30,928 bases of DNA from Candidatus Woesearchaeota archaeon (GCA_043812195.1 JBDRML010000024.1:1-30928); one strand, 5' to 3'. Shown: positions 11,612 to 30,928, counted from the stretch's first letter. Made by a program: numbers and translations. Notes: generated from the letters alone by a model not told the origin.

Positions 11612-12168
11612 TTTAGCCTTTTTTCCCTTATCATTTTTTTAATCTTTTTAATCTCTTCTTCATCTATTAAATCACTATATACATCTCTTAAATGCTTTGC
11701 GTCTTCTAAATCTTTTGGGCTTTTTAAATATTCTTCTTTAAATGCAATATTCATATCAATTGAACTAAACCACACATCTAAACCCGTAAGTTTTAATTTA
11801 ACTCTTGTTGTTAACTGATAATCATCTAATTCATCTTTAGATAGTTTTATTTCCATTTCAGGCAATGGTCGATTTTTATAAGTATATCTCACACTTGTAT
11901 CATTTTTAAGATAATCTTTATATATTTCAGTAGGATCATCAGACTGCATACATACAAAATCATTTTTAATAAGATCATTATGCATTTTAATAAAAATATC
12001 TTTAGATATTTTTGGAATAATCATATCTATGTCTTCAGTTGCTCTAGCTCTACCAGATGAAATTGCAACAAAACCAGAAACAATTATATATTTAGTGAAT
12101 TTTTCAACTATCTCACAAAAATCAATACAAAACTTATCCAATACATTTCTTTTAGATTCTCCTCTCAT
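11608..12168 (-). CDS. Nucleotidyltransferase-fold protein
   Basis: IVSGFVA...RATEDID and C-terminal KDLED motifs. Confidence 0.7.
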   Translation of the reverse strand: MRGESKRNVLDKFCIDFCEIVEKFTKYIIVSGFVAISSGRARATEDIDMIIPKISKDIFIKMHNDLIKNDFVCMQSDDPTEIYKDYLKNDTSVRYTYKNRPLPEMEIKLSKDELDDYQLTTRVKLKLTGLDVWFSSIDMNIAFKEEYLKSPKDLEDAKHLRDVYSDLIDEEEIKKIKKMIREKRLK

Positions 12169-12217
12169 TGCATATTAATAAGGTTAATTTAGAATATAAT
12201 ACTTTCGCTGGTGGTTG

Positions 12218-13615
12218 TCAAGCATTTTTATATTTGGCAATTAAACTAGCAGCGGTTTTACCATCACATTTTCCCTTATATTTTGTCATTATAATTCCCA
12301 TCAAAGCGCCAATACTCAACTCTTTTTTATCCTTAACTAATTCTTTAATCTCTTTCTCTAATTTATTTAAATCAGCAGCTTGATAACTAGCCAAATTAAT
12401 TATTTTCCCTTTAGCTAAGTCAACCATCACATCAAAAACAGCATCTTTAGTTATTTTATTAGTAGAAAGTGCTTCCAAAACAAATCTAAAATCTTTATCC
12501 TTAAATTTATAATCAACATTCAATCTAGATTTCATATCTTTAGGAATTTCAACCAAAATATTAGCAATCAACTTTTTATCAATTCTATATTCATAATCTT
12601 CTAAATTAAATCCTTCCTTAACTAAACTTCTTGCTAACTCAGCACTTAATCCTTCTTTTTCATATCTTAAAATTTTCTCATCTATTAATTCAGGGACTTC
12701 AATACTCTTCAATAATTCTTTTGTTATAGCAATAGGTTTGACATCCGATTCTGGATACATGCGAGATGCACCAGGCATAGGTCTCAAAAAACTCGTAGTT
12801 CCATCAAGCTCAGCCCTTCTTACTTCTTTCTTAACATTCCCTTTTAGTTGTCTCTTTATTTCATATTCAATAGTTGTTGGCATATGTCTCAAATCTTGAA
12901 AACCCTTTATTTCTACTCTATTTCCATTTTTTATAGAAACATTAACATCTTGACGAATAGACCCAATACCAGAAATTACCTTTCCAGTGCTTTTAAGTAT
13001 CATCCCAAGCTTTTCCGCCACTTCTTTTGCATGCTCAGCTGTTTTAATATCTGGTTCAGTTGCAATCTCAATTAAAGGAATCCCTAACCTATCTAATCTA
13101 AAAACTACACAATTTTTTTCATCCCTTACTCTCCTAGCAGCATCCTCCTCCAAACAAATACTACCAATTCTAACCTTCCCTTTAGAAGTTTCTATGAACC
13201 CATCGTGACCACACATTAGTGTTCGCTGAAACCCGCTAGTGTTGCTTCCATCGACTACAGTTTTTCTCATAACTTGAATTTCATCTACAATTTTGCATTT
13301 TAAGATCTTACAAACCTGCAAAACAACTTTTAAGGCATCCATATTAAGATCATTAGGCGGAGATTCATCAAATTCAACTAGACAATTAGTATCCCTATAA
13401 GCTTCATAATTAAATTCCCTTCTTTTCAAACTTTCATAAAAAGCAGCTTCATCTATACTTCCAAGCTCCCCAGCAACAGCCCTCAATGCCCTAATCAATA
13501 AAATATCATGAGGATCATCTCTTAAAATAGTCGGACACTCACAAAATAATTTTTTCCCAGATAATTGCTTATGAATTTCTAAACCACATTTGAACTTTAA
13601 TTTTTTATAATCCAT
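12218..13615 (-). CDS. gatE: Glu-tRNA(Gln) amidotransferase subunit E
   Basis: GLEIH, KLFC, DGSNTSGFQRT, LEEDA, LDRLGIPLIEI, RQDVNVSI, RMYPE. Confidence 0.96.
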   Translation of the reverse strand: MDYKKLKFKCGLEIHKQLSGKKLFCECPTILRDDPHDILLIRALRAVAGELGSIDEAAFYESLKRREFNYEAYRDTNCLVEFDESPPNDLNMDALKVVLQVCKILKCKIVDEIQVMRKTVVDGSNTSGFQRTLMCGHDGFIETSKGKVRIGSICLEEDAARRVRDEKNCVVFRLDRLGIPLIEIATEPDIKTAEHAKEVAEKLGMILKSTGKVISGIGSIRQDVNVSIKNGNRVEIKGFQDLRHMPTTIEYEIKRQLKGNVKKEVRRAELDGTTSFLRPMPGASRMYPESDVKPIAITKELLKSIEVPELIDEKILRYEKEGLSAELARSLVKEGFNLEDYEYRIDKKLIANILVEIPKDMKSRLNVDYKFKDKDFRFVLEALSTNKITKDAVFDVMVDLAKGKIINLASYQAADLNKLEKEIKELVKDKKELSIGALMGIIMTKYKGKCDGKTAASLIAKYKNA

Positions 13616-24143: not shown

Positions 24144-24389
24144 ATGCCAAAATTTTCTAAGTTGGCGAAACCTCATTTATCAATATTTAAACCTGCTGAA
24201 GACGATCAAGAAAACTTAAAAGATCCCAAATTCATTGACAATCCTATTGAATATCTTTGTTCAATGAGAATGGCATTTGAAAAAGAACATGGGGAACCAA
24301 TCTATCAAAACAATTTAGCTAGTTTATGGGGATTTCCGAGAGATAGAATTAATCCTTTGTTTTTAACTGATAAAACAAGTTTAGGTTAA
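24144..24389 (+). CDS. Hypothetical protein
   Basis: ORF only. Confidence 0.45.
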   Translation: MPKFSKLAKPHLSIFKPAEDDQENLKDPKFIDNPIEYLCSMRMAFEKEHGEPIYQNNLASLWGFPRDRINPLFLTDKTSLG

Positions 24390-25256
24390 TTTGATCTTCC
24401 AAATCCTATAACCTTTAGAGGATTTCAGAATATCATCTTGGTTAAATTGTAACGATTTTTTTTTGATAAGCTCTTTAATAACTCTTTCATTAGATATTAT
24501 TTCTGATTTAAAACCCTTTTCTGTTAAGAATTCTTTAGTTTCTTTTTCAGATTCAAAATAATCAAATTCTCTTTTTGTTATCTTAGAGATTTTTTCACGA
24601 ATGTTTTCTTTACCTAAAATTTCGTCTTTTTTCTTTTTTATTCTAGAAAAATCAGAGGTTAACCACAATCCCTCTTTTGAATAAGTTCCAAACAAGTATT
24701 TTATATTATCTCTAAACATCTTTTTTTCGTTTTTATCAAAATACATCAATAACCCTTCATGAATAATAACTAATTTTTTATTTTTGCCTTCTTCTAAATA
24801 AAGTTTTCCAATTTTATCCATTTCTTTTTTATCAAGAGGGTTTATATCCATAAAAAACAAATTTCTTGCATCTAATTTTTTTTGAGTAATTATTTCATTC
24901 AATATTTTTTCTTTTAAATCAATTAATCCTTTTAATTCTGTCTCAAGATATATAATATTTTTTTTATTTAAAAATTCTAAACTTCTTGGGGACAGACCAG
25001 ATGCTATCTCCACAATAAAAGCATCATTCATATTTGACAGGGAATCATTTAGTGAATAATATCTTCCTTCAATAAATGGGATAAAATCTGATTTTGAATT
25101 TAATGTATTTCCATAGTCTGGTAAATCTTCTATCCAATCTTTAAATTTTGTATCTATTAAATTAACAATTTCTTTTGAAAATGGAAGTTTTTGTTTGGCC
25201 CTCATTCTAGCACAGAAAACTGCAGTTGGACTTATCTTTGAATATTCTTTTCCCAT
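24381..25256 (-). CDS. Class I SAM-dependent methyltransferase (LCM-like)
   Basis: ISPTA, VEIASGLSPR, IHEGLLMYF. Confidence 0.75.
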   Translation of the reverse strand: MGKEYSKISPTAVFCARMRAKQKLPFSKEIVNLIDTKFKDWIEDLPDYGNTLNSKSDFIPFIEGRYYSLNDSLSNMNDAFIVEIASGLSPRSLEFLNKKNIIYLETELKGLIDLKEKILNEIITQKKLDARNLFFMDINPLDKKEMDKIGKLYLEEGKNKKLVIIHEGLLMYFDKNEKKMFRDNIKYLFGTYSKEGLWLTSDFSRIKKKKDEILGKENIREKISKITKREFDYFESEKETKEFLTEKGFKSEIISNERVIKELIKKKSLQFNQDDILKSSKGYRIWKIKLT

Positions 25257-25494
25257 ACACTTCTCAATATTTATTCATTTATAAAAATTGTGTCTTCTTT
25301 TCCCACCGCCCCAAATCTTCTTTTTTAGAAAAAAAGAAGCAAAAAAGAACGCGCACCTCAAATTTAATAGGATGGCTAAAAACCCACCTGAAATAAGAGA
25401 GATTTTAGAAATATCATAACGGAGAATTAGAAACTTGCTCCGTTTCACTCCGCACCACGCCTTGCAGGCTTTCATAAAATCAAAGATTTTATTC

Positions 25495-25522
25495 AGGTCG
25501 CTGAACAGGGCTTATGTGCAAT
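25495..25522 (+). repeat. dif-like site S1
   Basis: AGGTCGCTGAA-CAGGGC-TTATGTGCAAT. Confidence 0.75.
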
Positions 25523-25523
25523 A

Positions 25524-25796
25524 TTACTCGGGCTTTGGAATTATAGAAAATCTATCTTCCATTTCTTTTAAAATCGCATTCCGATCATCCCACATTGTAA
25601 CAGAATCACAAGCTCTATTTCTAACACTGTCATACATTACAACTTTCTTATTCGTCGACCAATTGGGAAGATGTCTATATTCCTTAGATAATAATGTAGA
25701 AAATTCGTCATTAATTTCAATTACAGCGTCACGGTTACTATCTCGAGCGGCTGTAACCATTCTTTCCAATGTTTGGTATATTTGTGATTCCGACAT
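25524..25796 (-). CDS. Cassette 1 hypothetical protein (90 aa, MSESQ...KPE)
   Basis: Start moved to ATG 25796; TTTATATA box at 25820-25827; the longer track ORF runs through the linker. Confidence 0.7.
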   Translation of the reverse strand: MSESQIYQTLERMVTAARDSNRDAVIEINDEFSTLLSKEYRHLPNWSTNKKVVMYDSVRNRACDSVTMWDDRNAILKEMEDRFSIIPKPE

Positions 25797-25888
25797 GTTT
25801 ATACAGTAATTTGAACCCATATATAAATATATTCCAAAGTCCTGTGTCATACTGTCGGTCGCTTCGCTCCCTCGTTCGCCTTGCAGGC

Positions 25889-25916
25889 TCACCACATAAC
25901 AGCGATTAGTTTCAAT
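25889..25916 (+). repeat. dif-like site S2
   Basis: TCACCACATAA-CAGCGA-TTAGTTTCAAT. Confidence 0.8.
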
Positions 25917-25961
25917 TCAAAAATCGTGCTCCCAAAGTTATTCGAGGCAAGAATTGTTATT

Positions 25962-26105
25962 TTATTTAAATTCTAGAGTTTTATAAAGAATTTTTGGTTC
26001 TATTTGAGAAGCTCTTACCATAGCATCTGCTCTTTCATAACCTGCTCTTAATTCAGCTTCTCTTTCTCTTACCATAGCATCTGTATCTATCATTATGTCT
26101 ATCAT
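25962..26105 (-). CDS. Cassette 2 micro-protein (47 aa), absent from the ORF track
   Basis: MIDIMIDTDAMVREREAELRAGYERADAMVRASQIEPKILYKTLEFK; BRE/TATA CCGAAAGTTTTAAATA upstream; fills the space between two inverted-repeat pairs. Confidence 0.65.
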   Translation of the reverse strand: MIDIMIDTDAMVREREAELRAGYERADAMVRASQIEPKILYKTLEFK

Positions 26106-26279
26106 GTTTTTAATAAAATAACACTACTATTTAAAACTTTCGGTTATTAGTCTTTTAATAGTAGTTACAATTCTTGCCTCTCAATATTCTAAATTCCCGT
26201 CCACCCATGCACAATTTTTGAACTCGAGATTTTTCGGCTTCGCCGAACATTGCATTAAAATCTCGTCCTCATTACATTC

Positions 26280-26307
26280 GAAGAAACTAACACTAATTAT
26301 GTGCAAT
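26280..26307 (+). repeat. dif-like site S3
   Basis: GAAGAAACTAA-CACTAA-TTATGTGCAAT. Confidence 0.8.
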
Positions 26308-26322
26308 AAAAATGAGTTGCCC

Positions 26323-26646
26323 TTATTCTTTACGTTCAAACTCTACAAGAATATCAACATTCTCATAATCACAAGTAATATTTAAACCTTCAAGGTTTGA
26401 AATCTCGCATTCACATCTGCTCTTGTCAACATAGCCTATACAATTTTCCCAAGTAGGTGTATCATAGGTAATTTGTTCCACACTAACTTTGAAACCGTAA
26501 CAAGGACACTTTATGGAACCTAATAGACCCATTACATTATTGGCATCATACGAAGTTCTTTTGGGGTAAAAAAATATCGCCAGTAAAATTAGAATAATAA
26601 TTATGAGGATTATTGCTTTTCGGTTCTTAAAAAAAGAAACATTCAT
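26323..26646 (-). CDS. Cassette 3 membrane-anchored Cys-rich protein
   Basis: Start moved to ATG 26646 with a TATA box upstream; N-terminal TM helix and six Cys. Confidence 0.7.
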   Translation of the reverse strand: MNVSFFKNRKAIILIIIILILLAIFFYPKRTSYDANNVMGLLGSIKCPCYGFKVSVEQITYDTPTWENCIGYVDKSRCECEISNLEGLNITCDYENVDILVEFERKE

Positions 26647-26790
26647 AAAAAAATTAGAGATAATAGAAATATATAAATCTATTGCTTCGGGCAACTCATT
26701 TTTACTTCTCTAAATCTTGATGTTAAACGAAATAATGCTCAGCACAAAGTGAATAGAAAACTTTATATTATCTATTAATAAATTAATGAT

Positions 26791-27051
26791 ATGCAATGGA
26801 AAGAATTTTTTAAACCAAACATTTTCAAGATTATTTTAACAATTATCTTGTTAATTGCGTCACTTTATGGAATATATTATTTGATTTTTTCTCTGTCATA
26901 TTATGTTGGCGAATGTGTTCCAGGTAGTTCATGTCCTAATTTCTCTGAATTAGCACTAAAAGGCGTTCTCTACTCTTCTATTCCTGCACTTTTAATCAAT
27001 TATTTAATTTCCTGTATAATATATTCAATATATAAAAGAATCAAAAAATAA
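26791..27051 (+). CDS. Cassette 3 second gene, small two-TM protein
   Basis: Two TM helices around a CVPGSSC loop; TTTATA box upstream. Confidence 0.7.
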   Translation: MQWKEFFKPNIFKIILTIILLIASLYGIYYLIFSLSYYVGECVPGSSCPNFSELALKGVLYSSIPALLINYLISCIIYSIYKRIKK

Positions 27052-27096
27052 AAATTATTTCCCTAATTCATTTCTTTTCAGTCGCTTCGCTCCTTC

Positions 27097-27124
27097 AGGG
27101 CACATAACAGCGATTATACTCAAT
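27097..27124 (+). repeat. dif-like site S4
   Basis: AGGGCACATAA-CAGCGA-TTATACTCAAT. Confidence 0.8.
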
Positions 27125-27202
27125 TTTCTTCCATATTCACTCCAGAAAACTCAAAAATCTTAATATCAGACAAGCTGATTTAATAATATTTTGGCCTTAA
27201 CA

Positions 27203-27230
27203 GGCGAGTCTAACACTAATTATGTACAAT
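27203..27230 (+). repeat. dif-like site S5
   Basis: GGCGAGTCTAA-CACTAA-TTATGTACAAT. Confidence 0.8.
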
Positions 27231-27231
27231 A

Positions 27232-27501
27232 TTACTCGACCGCCGCCTTTAATTTCTGTAAAAGTTGTTTTATTTCATCTATCTCAATATGCAGAATTTT
27301 CGGTTCTTTTCTTCCCTCAATTTCATCCATCACAGAGAATCCGTCAATCACATCTTGTGTTTCGCCATTTAGTTTTTTATATGCCTCAAATTCTTCGTTT
27401 AGAAATCTACTGCAAATTTCCGCAATTTCTTCTCTAATCTTTCCACTATCGTTCTGGATTAGGTCTTCCAGTTTCTCAATTAATTTACTTATCAATTCCA
27501 T
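27232..27501 (-). CDS. Cassette 5 small acidic helical protein
   Basis: ORF with TTTATATA upstream; stop lies in the conserved TATTACTC. Confidence 0.7.
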   Translation of the reverse strand: MELISKLIEKLEDLIQNDSGKIREEIAEICSRFLNEEFEAYKKLNGETQDVIDGFSVMDEIEGRKEPKILHIEIDEIKQLLQKLKAAVE

Positions 27502-27573
27502 AACGAAATGAAAAACATGATACTATATAAAACTTGTGCGGCGGTCTGCGTCATACTATCCCCTCGCTATCGC

Positions 27574-27601
27574 TCGACACATAACACTGATTAAGTTCAA
27601 T
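27574..27601 (+). repeat. dif-like site S6
   Basis: TCGACACATAA-CACTGA-TTAAGTTCAAT. Confidence 0.8.
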
Positions 27602-27636
27602 TTTCTTCCATATTCACTACAGAAAACTCAAAACCC

Positions 27637-28074
27637 TTAATCTCTAAAAATATACTCGCCTTTTTCTTCGTAAACAATCGCTCCCTTAAACGGCTCTTTT
27701 GTTTTATAAAGAGGCGACTGATATGCCTGATTCAGAATTCCAGCAACCTCATCAGCAGTATCTTTATTAGTTCCGTTAGGATATGTTGCTTGTAACATGT
27801 AATTTATACCATCTTGTTTTGCTTCTTGAGCAAGAGCAGTTAATCTCTTGTCGCCTTCTATGTTATCCATACCTTCAATTAAAGAAAGTTCTAACTGAGA
27901 GGGTGTTCTAACAAGTTCGCGAATTGTATGTAATTCTGTTTCAATTTCTTGTTTTGAAGCATCGCAATAAAAAAATCCATATGCTTTTCCAATTTGTTTA
28001 GCCATGTGACTCTCTCTAGTTACTTTATTGCCTTTTTTATCAATAAATGCATATGATTTAATTTCTTTTTCCAT
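27637..28074 (-). CDS. Cassette 6 hypothetical protein
   Basis: ORF with CGAAAGGTTTATATA BRE/TATA upstream. Confidence 0.75.
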   Translation of the reverse strand: MEKEIKSYAFIDKKGNKVTRESHMAKQIGKAYGFFYCDASKQEIETELHTIRELVRTPSQLELSLIEGMDNIEGDKRLTALAQEAKQDGINYMLQATYPNGTNKDTADEVAGILNQAYQSPLYKTKEPFKGAIVYEEKGEYIFRD

Positions 28075-28213
28075 ATTATTACTATGTATTAATAAGTATA
28101 TAAACCTTTCGTTTTATAACTACTCAATAGAGACTATAAACTATTAACTAAGCCAGCCCGAACTCTCCTTCCGCTTCGCTTCAGTCGGGACGTTACACTT
28201 TTTCCTTCGGAAA

Positions 28214-28241
28214 ACCACGCAGAACAGACATTATGTAACAT
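28214..28241 (+). repeat. dif-like site S7
   Basis: ACCACGCAGAA-CAGACA-TTATGTAACAT. Confidence 0.75.
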
Positions 28242-28313
28242 ATTACTCGGCAACCTTAACTTTCTCACCGATAGTTTTATTAGAACATTATGTATAATAG
28301 TCAACAACTAAAA

Positions 28314-28730
28314 ATGACAGAAAAATACTATATTGATACGTCAATTTGGATAGACCTTGTTGAAGATAGAAAAGGCTACAACGACGAACCATTAGGAAGT
28401 TATGCTCTTAAACTATTTGCTATGATTAAAGCCAAGAAACACAAAATGGTTGTTTCTGATCTTTTAATCAGAGAATTAGAATCGAATTATTCCATGGAAG
28501 AGATTAATGGAATGATGCTTCCGTTTCAAAAAATAATGGAAAAAATATTTGTCACTAAAGAACAACATGATGAAGCCAAAAAAATCGCCGAAGAAAGAAA
28601 TCTACCTCCAAGTGATGTGCTTCATGCAATTGTAGCAAGAAATAACAATTATACCATGATCACTAGGAACAAACACTTCAAGGAGTTAGAAGACATTACT
28701 AAACATTCAAAACCAGAAGAAATCATCTAA
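28314..28730 (+). CDS. Cassette 7 PIN-domain (VapC-like) protein
   Basis: YIDTSIWID, ELE, DVLHA, ITRNKHF; start moved to ATG 28314. Confidence 0.88.
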   Translation: MTEKYYIDTSIWIDLVEDRKGYNDEPLGSYALKLFAMIKAKKHKMVVSDLLIRELESNYSMEEINGMMLPFQKIMEKIFVTKEQHDEAKKIAEERNLPPSDVLHAIVARNNNYTMITRNKHFKELEDITKHSKPEEII

Positions 28731-28984
28731 GTATTTTTAGAAATTTCTTCAAATGCTTTAGCTCTTATCTTCTCATAATCTTTTTCTGTTGTCTTTTTCT
28801 TAACGCTACCTTTTAGATGAACTAATTCCATCATTGCTTTCTTTAACTTAATCTCTTCAACTTTCTCTCTAAGAGCATTCCTAATAAATTCTGTTCTATT
28901 TTGGTAGCCTTCATTCTTTACGACTTTGTCTACTTCTCCCAAAAATACATTATCCATTTTGACAGTTATCATCTCCGTTACCAT
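28727..28984 (-). CDS. Cassette 7 ribbon-helix-helix (CopG/NikR-like) protein
   Basis: ITVKM...VDKVV...GYQNRTEFIRNALR. Confidence 0.88.
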   Translation of the reverse strand: MVTEMITVKMDNVFLGEVDKVVKNEGYQNRTEFIRNALREKVEEIKLKKAMMELVHLKGSVKKKTTEKDYEKIRAKAFEEISKNT

Positions 28985-29127
28985 ATAGCCATTGCATATA
29001 CAATAACTATATAAACTTTTCTATCATTTTCTTATAAAATACATAATGTCACTATAAATCGATCAGCTCAGACGGTTGCCTGCGTCATAACGCTGACATC
29101 TTCGATGTCAGGTGGAACATAAAGCTC

Positions 29128-29155
29128 CATTTGCATAATACCAATTATACTCAAT
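29128..29155 (+). repeat. dif-like site S8
   Basis: CATTTGCATAA-TACCAA-TTATACTCAAT. Confidence 0.8.
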
Positions 29156-29208
29156 AAATTTGTAGCCCGAGATATTATTTGCTTATTCACTTGTAGAACA
29201 AAATAAGC

Positions 29209-29604
29209 CTAGTCATCAAGAGGAGTAAAATATTGCTCGAAGAGTTCCATGCTTTTTCGGAGATAGCGAGCCTCTTGGTCCGATTTATCCTCTTTTGCTT
29301 CGTAAAGCTCAGAAGCTCGTGTGTATGATCTCGCTTGGCTGGTTAACAAGTCGTTAGCCCAGGCTTCTAGGTCGTCAGCGGTCGTGTAAGGTAGTAAATG
29401 TACATTGCGATCTTTTCCCATGAATTCCATTTCTCCATAAAGACCAGCACAAGCTCCAGAGTGAACAAGATACCTCAACGTGATTCCTTCATTCAATCTA
29501 AATCTTCGACTGTTGACCATTACTTCTGTGCCGGCTTCTATTTGGTATGTGCCGCTTCCGTCAGGGAAGACACCCAATTTCACTTCTATTGGTGATAGTT
29601 CCAT
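29209..29604 (-). CDS. Cassette 8 hypothetical protein
   Basis: ATG 29604; enclosed by two nested inverted-repeat pairs. Confidence 0.7.
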   Translation of the reverse strand: MELSPIEVKLGVFPDGSGTYQIEAGTEVMVNSRRFRLNEGITLRYLVHSGACAGLYGEMEFMGKDRNVHLLPYTTADDLEAWANDLLTSQARSYTRASELYEAKEDKSDQEARYLRKSMELFEQYFTPLDD

Positions 29605-29754
29605 ATTCAAGGAGAACCTCTGCTTATTTTTATAATTATGGTTTTTACTCAGGCTACAAATTTACTTCTCCGCTCCTCGTTCACTTCGTGAACTGCGGTG
29701 CTCAACCCCATTGCATTCTCACCTCGTTTATTAACTTCGTTATAAACTCGGCTC

Positions 29755-29782
29755 GGGGAATATAACACCAATTAGTTACAAT
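29755..29782 (+). repeat. dif-like site S9
   Basis: GGGGAATATAA-CACCAA-TTAGTTACAAT. Confidence 0.8.
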
Positions 29783-29785
29783 CGC

Positions 29786-30415
29786 TCAGGGTCGCCTTGC
29801 ATATATTTCCCAAAAAGCTGATTTTTTACTTGGGAAATTTTCACTTACACCTTCAAAATCCTTTAATTTAATGATTTCATACCTTTTAAAGAATTCTCTC
29901 ATCTCTTCCTCTGCAAAATAATGATGAGGCATGTCTCCGTCAATGGAGTCAATATTAATTTTTGTATTTGGTTCAATTTCCTTACCAGTTAAATATTCAG
30001 GGTGTTTTGTTGATGGAACTCTCAGAAATAATACACCTCCTTTTCTTAATACTCTATAAATTTCAGAAATAGTTTTTTTTATTTTTGCTATTTTTCCATG
30101 TTCAATAACAAAATCGCATAAAACACCATCAAAAAAACTATCTTTATATGATAAAGAAGTCATATCACATTGTTTAAATTCAATTTCTTTTAAAATCTCA
30201 CGTGATATTTTTAATGCACTCTCCGATGAATCACAGCCATAAACTTGAAAACCTTGTTTTAATAAATAAAGAGTATGCCTTCCAGTTCCACAGCCCAAAT
30301 CGAGAATTCTTTCTAATCGTTCTTTTTTAAAAAAATCAGCAGCTTCAATAACTTTTATAGATGGTTCTTTCTGAACTATTCCTTTCTCTTTGTATAATGA
30401 ATCCCAATCCTTCAT
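29786..30415 (-). CDS. Cassette 9 class I SAM-dependent methyltransferase
   Basis: ILDLGCGTGRH, GCDSS, CDM, RVLRKGG. Confidence 0.9.
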   Translation of the reverse strand: MKDWDSLYKEKGIVQKEPSIKVIEAADFFKKERLERILDLGCGTGRHTLYLLKQGFQVYGCDSSESALKISREILKEIEFKQCDMTSLSYKDSFFDGVLCDFVIEHGKIAKIKKTISEIYRVLRKGGVLFLRVPSTKHPEYLTGKEIEPNTKINIDSIDGDMPHHYFAEEEMREFFKRYEIIKLKDFEGVSENFPSKKSAFWEIYARRP

Positions 30416-30507
30416 AATATAATAAAAAGTAATTTTAATATATAAATACTTCTATGGGCGACCTTGAGCGACTTTTCTACCGAAATTTTACCCCACTTCG
30501 TAGGGTA

Positions 30508-30535
30508 AAAGAAACTAACACCAATTATACAACAT
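30508..30535 (+). repeat. dif-like site S10
   Basis: AAAGAAACTAA-CACCAA-TTATACAACAT. Confidence 0.8.
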
Positions 30536-30537
30536 TA

Positions 30538-30789
30538 TTACTCGACAGAATTCCTATGTGGCTCCCAGTTCGGATTCCAGGTACCAGATGTAATCATTAA
30601 AGAGAATTCAAGTGCTGATTGCACTTAGCATAAAGACGGTTCTATTCTTTCATAACTTGCTCGGGCTGCTTCATAACTTTTCTGGATAAGTGTTTGCCCT
30701 GAATCAGAAACTATTCCAGCTAATGCTATAGCATAGAGTGATGTGGCCCCCACACCAACCAACAAATTAAGTCTTAAGTTCTTATCCAT
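30538..30789 (-). pseudogene. Cassette 10 gene (83 codons) with one in-frame TAA
   Basis: ATG 30789, hydrophobic N-terminus, TAA at 30625-30627, frame then stays open to the conserved GAG-TAA at 30538. Confidence 0.6.
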
Positions 30790-30928
30790 AAAGGAGATAA
30801 TTCATCAAGTTTTAAATGTTTATCGGAATTCTGCCTACGTCATACACAAAACCTTTATTGTCCTAATTCCGTTTCACTTCATTATAATCATAAATCTTTT
30901 GGTTTGCTCCATTTAACGCTCACTCTCC

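What the first reader, a model, noticed from the sequence alone, without database searches (positions are those of the whole stretch)
25495..30928. Integron-like gene-cassette array built on tandem dif/Xer-like sites in an archaeon
Seen: ten 28-bp sites, all in one orientation, start at 25495, 25889, 26280, 27097, 27203, 27574, 28214, 29128, 29755 and 30508. They share the form (N)9-AA / 6-bp spacer (YA...) / TTA-N4-CAAT or ACAT. They separate units of 106-914 bp carrying 0-2 unrelated small genes, mostly on the minus strand. Known: this 11-6-11 geometry matches tyrosine-recombinase core sites such as E. coli dif (GGTGCGCATAA-TGTATA-TTATGTTAAAT), and archaea use XerA. Acinetobacter pdif modules usually alternate in orientation, and integron attC sites are much longer hairpins. 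Inference: a cassette capture and shuffling platform, distinct from classical integrons, served by a recombinase encoded outside this window. I cannot confirm novelty without a search.
Basis: partly seen in the sequence, partly recalled or inferred. Interest (0 to 1): 0.95.

Follow-up and report, generated by a model that had tools for sequence, protein, structure and literature searches.

The report
Archaeal Xer-type integron-like cassette array
A tiny groundwater archaeon keeps unrelated accessory genes as separate cassettes between 28-base recombination sites that go with a Xer-like recombinase, so it looks like an integron built without the integron's hallmark enzyme domain.

Summary
The ten 28-bp sites are real, all on one strand, and confined to cassette arrays. 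The array runs on into contig C37, giving 15 sites and 14 cassettes. The same genome has a XerA-family recombinase on contig C36 with an attI-like site upstream, a first cassette, and then a long hairpin version of the site. Contig C30 carries four more long hairpin sites.

An exact 20-nt core motif occurs in 76 of 201 genomes of the same archaeal order. In relatives G031 and G036 the array starts directly upstream of a divergently transcribed recombinase.

The recombinases lack the IntI-specific insert. No canonical IntI was found in 121 genomes of the order.

Each cassette's right arm and left arm are complementary to each other, but the two arms within one array site are not. This places the crossover in the 6-bp centre. 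It also means an excised circle would carry an attC-like imperfect palindrome of about 100-130 nt.

Metagenome contigs show the first cassette in other contexts, with breakpoints inside the cores, and a three-cassette deletion.

Verdict: an integron-like cassette platform built on Xer/dif-type sites. It is a new variant of a known kind. No recombination has been shown experimentally, and its relation to IntI is unresolved.

The parts
25495..25522 (+). Core site 1 (array boundary). Its left half deviates from the other sites; its right arm belongs to cassette 1.
   Evidence: (LOO 18.0 bits). A contig in run X4 breaks at 25512, the first base of the right arm (table 7).
25889..25916 (+). Core site 2
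   Evidence: 21.5 bits. Contigs in runs X2, X3 and X4 diverge after 25908, inside the core (table 7).
26280..26307 (+). Core site 3
   Evidence: 23.1 bits
27097..27124 (+). Core site 4, followed by a 106-bp gene-less unit
   Evidence: D1; 30.0 bits
27203..27230 (+). Core site 5
   Evidence: 25.5 bits
27574..27601 (+). Core site 6
   Evidence: 23.5 bits
28214..28241 (+). Core site 7 (weak match, ends in ACAT). It is supported by the conserved ATTACTCG flank and the cassette inverted repeat.
   Evidence: (14.9 bits); below 6 bits with the retrained PWM
29128..29155 (+). Core site 8 (weak match)
   Evidence: 11.7 bits; 12.2 bits
29755..29782 (+). Core site 9
   Evidence: 24.7 bits
30508..30535 (+). 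Core site 10 (ends in ACAT). The array continues past the window end into C37.
   Evidence: (17.8 bits)
25524..25796 (-). Cassette 1 ORF (90 aa, no Pfam family). Flanking inverted repeat at 25533-25541 / 25831-25839.
   Evidence: (TATA-like box about 31 nt upstream)
25962..26105 (-). Cassette 2 ORF (47 aa). Flanking inverted repeat at 25917-25924 / 26214-26221.
   Evidence: (I4)
26323..26646 (-). Cassette 3a ORF (107 aa), bracketed by a 15-nt inverted repeat at 26308-26322 / 26689-26703.
   Evidence: (I2)
26791..27051 (+). Cassette 3b ORF (86 aa, hydrophobic)
27232..27501 (-). Cassette 5 ORF (89 aa). Flanking inverted repeat at 27238-27246 / 27538-27546.
27637..28074 (-). Cassette 6 ORF (145 aa); no convincing flanking repeat.
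28290..28730 (+). Cassette 7: PIN-domain toxin
   Evidence: PF01850, E 1.4e-10. A 69%-identical copy lies in the G031 array.
28727..28984 (-). Cassette 7: ribbon-helix-helix antitoxin. The cassette's inverted repeat is at 28249-28255 / 29074-29080.
   Evidence: (PF17723, PF01402)
29209..29610 (-). Cassette 8 ORF (133 aa). Flanking 12-nt inverted repeat at 29156-29167 / 29652-29663.
29786..30415 (-). Cassette 9: SAM-dependent methyltransferase. The inverted repeat is 7 nt exact (29790-29796 / 30457-30463), about 15 bp in the fold.
30625..30789 (-). Cassette 10 ORF (54 aa). This cassette ends on C37.

Best explanation
This is a cassette array of an integron-like platform that runs on Xer-type parts. 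Each cassette is a small accessory gene or gene pair, usually with its own archaeal TATA-type promoter. In the chromosome it is bounded by 28-bp core sites of the form arm, 6-bp centre, arm. A XerA-family tyrosine recombinase without the IntI insert is inferred to cut and rejoin within the centre. That would excise a cassette as a circle, or insert a circle at the attI-like site next to the recombinase gene or at another core.

Each cassette carries the right arm at its left end and the left arm at its right end. These arms, and a further cassette-specific inverted repeat just outside them, are mutually complementary. A circular cassette would therefore hold an imperfect palindrome of about 100-130 nt, an attC analogue.

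In a second class of site in the same genome (C30, C36) the centre is expanded into a stem-loop. Its stem rebuilds the double-stranded core with a 2-4-nt bulge. That is the design of integron attC sites and of the folded CTX-phage attP.

Shown here: the sites, their restriction to arrays, the arm and flank covariation, the linkage to the recombinase, the missing IntI insert, and contig-level polymorphism. Inferred: the catalysis, which recombinase acts on this particular array, and whether the substrate is double-stranded or folded.
For: Sites are real and array-specific. The array continues on C37, giving 15 sites.

Own genome: the C36 recombinase best matches P. abyssi XerA (4A8E, E 5e-43) in one stretch. 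An attI-like site, a 101-aa cassette and a long site lie directly upstream of it.

Relatives: the exact core motif occurs in 76 of 201 genomes of the order, against 13 hits in all for the reversed control. In G031:C8 and G036:C12 the order is recombinase, attI-like site, then cassettes. PWM sites within 1.5 kb of recombinase genes are in divergent orientation at 8 of 70 loci, in the same orientation upstream at 0, and downstream at 1. An attI-like half-site lies upstream in 12 of 24 clade A loci, 7 of 8 clade B loci and 1 of 19 clade C loci.

Crossover position: cognate arms match at 6.5 of 8 positions (n=14), against 4.3 within a site and 4.9 for other pairs; 0 of 20000 permutations reach this. 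This was repeated on 25 cassettes from 12 loci of other genomes: 6.52 against 5.45 and 5.21, 0 of 20000. In G031 the same 111-bp gene-less cassette follows both the attI-like site and ordinary cores, always with its own right arm.

Flank repeats: cognate 9.0 nt against 5.6, and 9.44 against 5.96 in relatives. Circle junctions fold better than array junctions in 13 of 14 cassettes.

Long sites fold as one hairpin, with z of -5 to -7 in 3 of 4.

No IntI: 22 residues where IntI4 has 65. The motif spacing is 56-65 in all 68 sequences where both motifs were found (of 84), against 100 in IntI1. TIGR02249 is over its cut-off in 0 of 121 genomes.

Mobility: a PIN/RHH cassette shares 67-69% identity between the G000 and G031 arrays, with different but still complementary flanks. 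Contigs of other samples break at 25512 and 25908, inside the cores. One X2 contig lacks 1223 bp holding three cassettes.
Against: No recombination product, circle or enzyme activity was observed.

The only clean deletion joint (X2, 25857 to 27081) lies in a 13-nt repeat of the linkers, 16-32 nt upstream of the cores. It fits slippage or homologous exchange better than core recombination.

The window's own array has no adjacent recombinase. The genome's recombinase (clade B) sits next to a long-type site, whereas short-site arrays in relatives sit next to clade A enzymes. No clade A member was found in this 90%-complete assembly.

That C36, C30 and C37 belong to one genome rests on binning. 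Only the C24-C37 link has an assembly overlap.

Arm and flank complementarity is not needed for ordinary double-strand recombination. In the fold of a short site the crossover region is the apical loop, which is not a normal substrate. The mechanism is therefore incomplete.

The strict long-site search in relatives gave 6 hits against 5 in the reversed control. The link between long sites and clade B rests on shared features of 5 hits, not on counts.

The C36 protein scores below the curated cut-off of the archaeal XerA model (201 against 220 bits).
Confidence: 0.72

Rival explanations
1. These are mini-IMEX elements. The cassettes have no dedicated integrase and exploit the cell's housekeeping XerA at, or next to, the chromosomal dif site, as CTX-type phages and other Xer-exploiting elements do in bacteria. 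The attI-like site would then be dif itself.
For: C36 is the only full-length XerA-family gene in the assembly and lies next to smc. G007 has the same recombinase-smc arrangement, with an array upstream. The site geometry equals the archaeal dif described as 11-6-11 (PMC2958812, passages read). The long sites resemble the folded CTX attP logic described in PMC7790495 (passages read).
Against: In the order most genomes with a clade A or B gene also have another XerA-like gene. Clade C follows the family labels, as a vertically inherited gene would, and has an upstream half-site in only 1 of 19 loci. G031 has two separate recombinase-plus-site loci. In Thermococcales dif is not next to xerA. No separate single-copy dif could be identified here, so the test is incomplete.
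Confidence: 0.14
2. This is an ordinary integron cassette cluster (CALIN). The sites are attC sites recombined by a canonical IntI that is unassembled or acts in trans, as already reported for archaea.
For: Archaeal attC clusters, mostly without IntI and including Nanoarchaeota, are published (PMC9668308, Results read). The long sites on C30 have an R''-L''-loop-L'-R' layout, are 86-155 nt long and carry a bulge. The cargo (toxin-antitoxin pair, methyltransferase, unknowns) is typical.
Against: No IntI was found over the curated cut-off in 0 of 121 genomes of the order, and all matches skip profile positions of about 182-236. The array-adjacent genes in G031, G036 and G000 lack the insert. The window's sites are 28 bp with no L boxes or loop. 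Only 1 of the 10 window sites fits RYYYAAC, by my reading (the consensus itself is recalled). Genes mostly lie on the strand opposite to canonical orientation, and 9 of 11 have their own TATA-like box.
Confidence: 0.07
3. The repeats are not recombination sites. They would be intergenic regulatory or structural elements, such as insulators, terminators or protein-binding palindromes, that spread among accessory genes. Alternatively they are ends of small hairpin-dependent transposable elements.
For: The sites lie between genes. Linkers are rich in TTCG-loop mini-hairpins with strong strand bias. The one clean deletion joint is in a linker repeat.
Against: This does not explain several findings: the arm exchange pattern; the identical cassette behind different left partners; the breakpoints inside cores in other samples; or the fixed divergent position next to tyrosine recombinase genes across families. 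No transposase lies in or beside the arrays. Rfam gave only sub-threshold chance matches.
Confidence: 0.05

Closest known systems
Integrons (IntI, attI, attC cassette arrays), including the archaeal integrons and CALINs of Ghaly et al. 2022 (PMC9668308)
   Same: A divergent tyrosine recombinase gene, an adjacent attI-like site and a one-way array of small unrelated cassettes. The cassette ends are complementary, so the circle carries an imperfect palindrome. A hairpin site class has a bulge. The cargo is a toxin-antitoxin pair, methyltransferases and unknowns.
   Different: The recombinase lacks the IntI-specific domain. The window's sites are 28-bp double-strand-type cores with the crossover in a 6-bp centre, not folded R/L boxes. 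The outer stem is cassette-specific, and a 40-80-nt linker bulges from one side. Cassettes carry their own promoters and mostly face the other way.
Xer/dif chromosome dimer resolution, archaeal XerA (Cortez et al. 2010, PMC2958812)
   Same: 11-6-11 site geometry. The recombinase's best structural relative is P. abyssi XerA.
   Different: There are many direct copies bounding accessory genes instead of one site at a terminus. The site is next to the recombinase gene. There are several paralogous recombinase clades.
IMEX elements, especially CTX phage, whose folded single strand mimics dif (as described in PMC7790495)
   Same: The long sites fold so that the stem rebuilds a dif-like duplex with an imperfect centre, and the elements stack in tandem at a Xer-type site.
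   Different: The units are single genes without replication or phage functions. A recombinase gene is linked to the array. A short double-strand class also exists.
Acinetobacter pdif modules
   Same: Accessory genes bounded by Xer-type 28-bp sites.
   Different: All sites here point one way: 15 of 15 in the C24-C37 array. The arrays are chromosomal, long and linked to a recombinase gene.

Membership tests
Classical integron | Integrase with the IntI-specific additional domain (I2 helix region) in the catalytic domain | tested here: not met
   C36 has 22 residues where IntI4 (2A3V) has 65. The GKGxKxR-to-HxLRH spacing is 56-65 in the order's recombinases, against 100 in IntI1 and 100-107 in eight bacterial IntI-like proteins. 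TIGR02249 scores 168 bits against a cut-off of 265 and is over the cut-off in 0 of 121 genomes.
Classical integron | attC sites: folded R''-L''-loop-L'-R' hairpins of about 57-141 nt with extrahelical bases (length range recalled) | tested here: inconclusive
   The window's ten sites are 28 bp without L boxes, so the feature is not met for them. Four sites on C30 and one on C36 have that layout, with a 3-4-nt stretch between L' and R', and they fold with z of -5 to -7 in 3 of 4. The IntegronFinder covariance model could not be run.
Classical integron | attI next to intI, divergent from the array | tested here: met
   An attI-like hybrid site lies 60-180 nt upstream of the recombinase start in G000:C36, G031:C8 and G036:C12. 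The window's own array has no such gene beside it.
Classical integron | Mostly promoterless, co-oriented cassettes expressed from a common promoter | tested here: not met
   Nine of 11 ORFs have a TATA-like box about 30 nt upstream of the start. Nine of 11 lie on the strand opposite to the R''-to-R' direction.
Xer/dif system | Two 11-bp imperfect inverted arms separated by a 6-bp spacer | tested here: met
   The definition is taken from PMC2958812. Within array sites the arms are hybrids; within a cassette they are near-palindromic.
Xer/dif system | Recombinase of the Xer/XerA family | tested here: inconclusive
   The best hit is NF040815 XerA_Arch at 201 bits, under its 220-bit cut-off. The best solved relative is XerA 4A8E. 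In the tree the protein falls in clade B, apart from the vertically inherited-looking clade C.
Xer/dif system | One site per replicon, used for dimer resolution | tested here: not met
   There are 15 direct copies in one array plus further arrays.
pdif modules | Sites of alternating orientation around each module (recalled) | tested here: not met
   All sites of the array lie on one strand.

The most novel reading that the evidence does not exclude
In this DPANN order, Xer-like recombinases without the I2/IntI insert run true gene-cassette platforms. They use two interchangeable site designs: a plain double-stranded dif-like core, and a folded hairpin that mimics the same core. This would be a living example of the Xer-to-integron transition that integron researchers say lacks intermediates, or else a fully independent re-invention of the integron. 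It would also mean that many archaeal 'attC clusters without integrase' are complete systems whose integrase goes unrecognised.
Probability: 0.35. Interest if true: 0.92.

Novelty: new variant of a known kind. Interest (0 to 1): 0.8.

Why it matters
Integron integrases are thought to have evolved from Xer-like double-strand recombinases by gaining one helix. The authors of that work note a lack of natural intermediates (PMC7790495, passages read; PMC4792948, abstract read).

Here an insert-less Xer-type enzyme is linked to cassette arrays. Double-strand cores and attC-like hairpins of the same sequence family sit side by side. This makes the question testable with a few proteins and oligonucleotides.

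It also gives the tiny, host-dependent DPANN archaea a concrete mechanism for swapping accessory genes. It further suggests that integron-finding software, which requires the IntI domain and long attC sites, misses a whole class of cassette platforms.

Tried and rejected
1. Chromosomal dif candidates. Single copies of a core-like 20-mer in five family relatives lie inside a conserved ORF of 439-512 aa, so they are coding sequence and not dif. G000 C3:17924 has no shared context. C29:42983 was not followed up.

2. IntI kinship. A quick tree with one IntI1 put it beside clade B (SH-aLRT 85). With nine IntI-type sequences, clade B was sister to a group holding the IntI clade (94). However, a tree with all DPANN recombinases held together is 15.4 log-likelihood units better (p-AU 0.70). 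The kinship claim is therefore dropped as unresolved.

3. Empty-site test. The left flank gene (24381-25256) was found in 0 of 24 family relatives, so no empty locus could be compared.

4. Rfam gave only sub-threshold chance hits. No tRNA lies in the window. The high-depth stretch at about 25315-25354 is a low-complexity palindrome that is also on C17.

5. A loose long-site search was useless: 195 hits against 253 in the control. The strict version is reported with its control.

6. A right-half PWM for attI-like sites missed variants, giving 10 divergent against 4 same-orientation hits. It was replaced by the regex count.

7. Four insert-less bacterial and Undinarchaeales relatives showed no cassette-like repeats nearby.

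8. The search for related loci used patterns so general that mostly bacterial Xer genes came back. These were used only as tree rows and for organism names.

9. Parts of the array without contig cover in X3 and X4, and the 'goes back 58' and other short-sided joints, are not used as evidence.

11. Supplements were closed. Data S1-S3 of PMC9668308 may list these very genomes or sites, and I could not see them.

12. Literature searches found no description of a Xer-based archaeal cassette array in the held library.

Full report
**1. The observation**

The window is the whole 30,928-bp contig C24 of a 938-kb, 45-contig genome with 29% G+C, estimated 90% complete. It carries archaeal markers upstream of the array: GatD, GatE and Dph2.

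The ten 28-mers are at the stated coordinates, all on the + strand. Leave-one-out PWM scores run from 11.7 to 30.0 bits. A scan of both strands of the genome gave 16 hits at 18 bits or more, against 0-2 in five shuffles. The hits are confined to the C24 end, C37, C30 and one place on C29. A PWM retrained on relatives finds nothing at 10 bits or more in window 1-24000. The motif is therefore not a feature of housekeeping intergenic DNA.

C24's end overlaps the reverse complement of C37 by 141 bp, and five more sites follow there. The array thus has 15 sites and 14 cassettes and ends at about C37:10146.

**2. Anatomy of a cassette**

Reading the + strand, each unit consists of:
- the right arm of a core, ending in CAAT or ACAT;
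- a cassette-specific stretch X;
- one or two small genes;
- the complement X';
- a 40-80-nt linker with small TTCG-loop hairpins;
- the left arm and centre of the next core.

Exact X/X' complementarity averages 9.0 nt for cognate ends (n=14), against 5.6 for non-cognate pairs (n=211, maximum 9). Two units lack a convincing pair: 27097-27203 and 27574-28214.

Nine of 11 ORFs are on the minus strand. Nine of 11 have a TATA-like box about 30 nt upstream of the start codon.

Recognisable cargo is a PIN/RHH pair and a SAM methyltransferase in the window, an APH-family phosphotransferase on C37 and an HD-domain protein on C30. The rest match no Pfam family.

**3. Where the crossover lies**

The variable inner positions of a cassette's right arm complement the left arm at the other end of the same cassette at 6.5 of 8 positions (n=14). 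The two arms of one array site complement at only 4.3 of 8, and unrelated pairs at 4.9. None of 20,000 permutations reached the cognate mean.

The same holds for 25 non-identical cassettes from 12 loci of other genomes: 6.52 against 5.45 and 5.21, 0 of 20,000.

Sites in the array are therefore hybrids. The exchange point lies between the arms, in or at the edges of the 6-bp centre.

In G031 the same 111-bp gene-less cassette follows both the attI-like site and ordinary cores. Each time it has its own right arm, and it is followed by different right arms.

**4. The recombinase**

The genome has four tyrosine recombinase genes. Only the C36 gene is a full-length XerA-type protein (264 aa, next to smc). 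Its best solved relative is P. abyssi XerA (E 5e-43, one stretch). IntI4 aligns in two stretches, leaving 22 residues where IntI4 has 65.

Directly upstream of the gene, in divergent orientation, lie an attI-like hybrid site, a 101-aa cassette with complementary ends, and a long hairpin site that is cut by the contig end.

In G031:C8 and G036:C12 a 275-aa homologue sits in the same position before arrays of 11 and 5 sites.

A tree of 80 homologues separates three groups:
- clade A, which includes those two array-adjacent genes;
- clade B, which includes C36;
- clade C, whose branching follows the family labels.

An objective half-site pattern occurs upstream, in divergent orientation, in 12 of 24 clade A loci, 7 of 8 clade B loci, 1 of 19 clade C loci and 6 of 33 other loci.

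No genome of 121 searched in the order has a match over the IntI model's cut-off. All matches skip profile positions of about 182-236. The spacing between two catalytic motifs is 56-65 in all 68 sequences where both motifs were found (of 84), against 100 in IntI1.

**5. Two site designs**

On C30 (four sites) and C36 (one site) the core is split. The left arm and centre run into a 9-11-bp stem (L''/L') that encloses 48-116 nt. A stretch of 3-4 nt (a 2-nt bulge in the predicted folds) and the right arm then follow.

The 5' strand of that stem has the same sequence as a short core. The hairpin therefore rebuilds the double-stranded site with a few extra bases, as in attC sites and the folded CTX attP described in PMC7790495.

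Three of the four C30 sites fold with z of -5 to -7. The fourth, whose arms in the array are non-cognate, has z of -0.9.

In relatives the strict search found six such sites, against five in the reversed control. Five of the six lie beside clade B genes and share the bulge and tail. This is suggestive, not statistical.

For the short sites, computed circle junctions fold into an outer X'/X stem, linker hairpins and an arm hairpin. They are more stable than the array junctions in 13 of 14 cassettes (-17.5 against -11.2 kcal/mol).

**6. Spread and mobility**

The exact 20-nt core motif occurs in 76 of 201 genomes of the order, across most of its families. By my count of the table, the reversed control hit 13 times in all.

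A PIN/RHH cassette shares 67-69% protein identity between the G000 and G031 arrays. It has different neighbours and different, still complementary, flanks.

Four groundwater or unspecified metagenome runs from four studies hold 55-91% of the array's sampled words. Their contigs show three things:
- a break at 25512, the first base of cassette 1's right arm (X4);
- a shared alternative continuation after 25908, inside core 2 (X2, X3, X4), that looks like a long-type site;
- one X2 contig that joins 25857 to 27081, removing 1223 bp with three cassettes.

That last joint lies in a 13-nt repeat of two linkers, not in the cores. It therefore speaks for cassette-level polymorphism but not for core recombination.

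Depth over cassettes 1-2 is 110-183 in X2 and X4, against about 10 on the flanks. This may mean other organisms carry them. Contig depths are not reliable for that conclusion.

**7. What it is and how sure**

The best reading (0.72) is an integron-like cassette platform on Xer-type parts.

The main rival (0.14) is that the cassettes merely exploit a housekeeping XerA at dif. I could not identify a separate dif, and G000 shows no other XerA, so this rival stays open.

A canonical integron cluster with an unseen IntI (0.07) is unlikely, given and the 28-bp sites.

Non-recombinational repeats (0.05) do not explain the arm exchange pattern.

**8. Results against, or unresolved**

- No experiment, circle or enzyme activity was observed.
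- The window's array has no adjacent recombinase. The enzyme clade that accompanies short sites elsewhere was not found in this assembly.
- Membership of C30, C36 and C37 in one genome rests on binning, apart from the C24-C37 overlap.
- The need for arm and flank complementarity is unexplained. It implies a folded single strand or cruciform, yet in that fold the crossover region of a short site is a loop (note).
- The apparent sister relation of clade B to IntI in quick trees did not survive a constrained-tree test.

**9. Novelty**

Archaeal integrons and attC clusters are published. They are defined by IntI with its extra domain and by IntegronFinder attC calls (PMC9668308, Results and the detection method read). 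The supplements that list genomes were not visible to me.

Searches of the held library found no Xer-based archaeal cassette array. I rate this a new variant of a known kind. It has high interest because it bears on the proposed Xer-to-IntI transition (PMC4792948 abstract; PMC7790495 passages).

Noticed in passing
G000 contig C36:7920-8544 (locus L189), outside the window: The genome's own platform: an attI-like site about 60 nt upstream of the XerA-like gene, a 101-aa cassette, then a long hairpin site cut by the contig end. C30, with four long sites, may be its continuation, but no overlap was found.
   Followed up: partly
Arrays of G000 (C24 25400-30928, C37, C30, C36): The heptamer GCTTCGC occurs 6 times on the site strand in 12.2 kb of arrays and 0 times on the other strand, against 9 times in the rest of the genome on both strands. 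CTTCG occurs 28 against 8 times. These are strand-specific TTCG-loop mini-hairpins in the linkers. The reverse strand of all four long sites folds slightly better.
   Followed up: partly
L017 (G031:C8) about 12000-13200: A 111-bp gene-less cassette is present in at least four copies, three of them in tandem right after the attI-like site. A masked run of N lies inside this array.
   Followed up: partly
window 25315-25354 and G000 C17:494-533: A low-complexity A/T palindrome just left of the array is repeated on C17. It draws very high contig depth in all four metagenome runs and looks like a common terminator-like hairpin.
   Followed up: partly
G000 C1:9418-10044, C15:3668-4930, C45:52254-53453: Three further tyrosine recombinase genes: a 208-aa catalytic-domain-only form near an ATPase-like gene, and two proteins of 399-420 aa with C-terminal zinc-ribbon-like motifs. 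They may belong to integrated elements.
   Followed up: no
window 24381-25256 (-): The gene on the array's left flank, a weak SAM-methyltransferase match, was found in none of 24 family relatives. It may itself be accessory DNA, so the true array boundary could lie further left.
   Followed up: partly
L118, L120, L122 (G043, G108, G113): A sub-branch of clade A recombinases has a conserved small gene directly upstream instead of an attI-like site. This may be a different kind of mobile element using the same enzyme family.
   Followed up: no
G000 C29:42983-43010 (-): A lone good match to the core (20.3 bits) lies outside any array. It is a possible chromosomal dif or secondary attachment site.
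   Followed up: no
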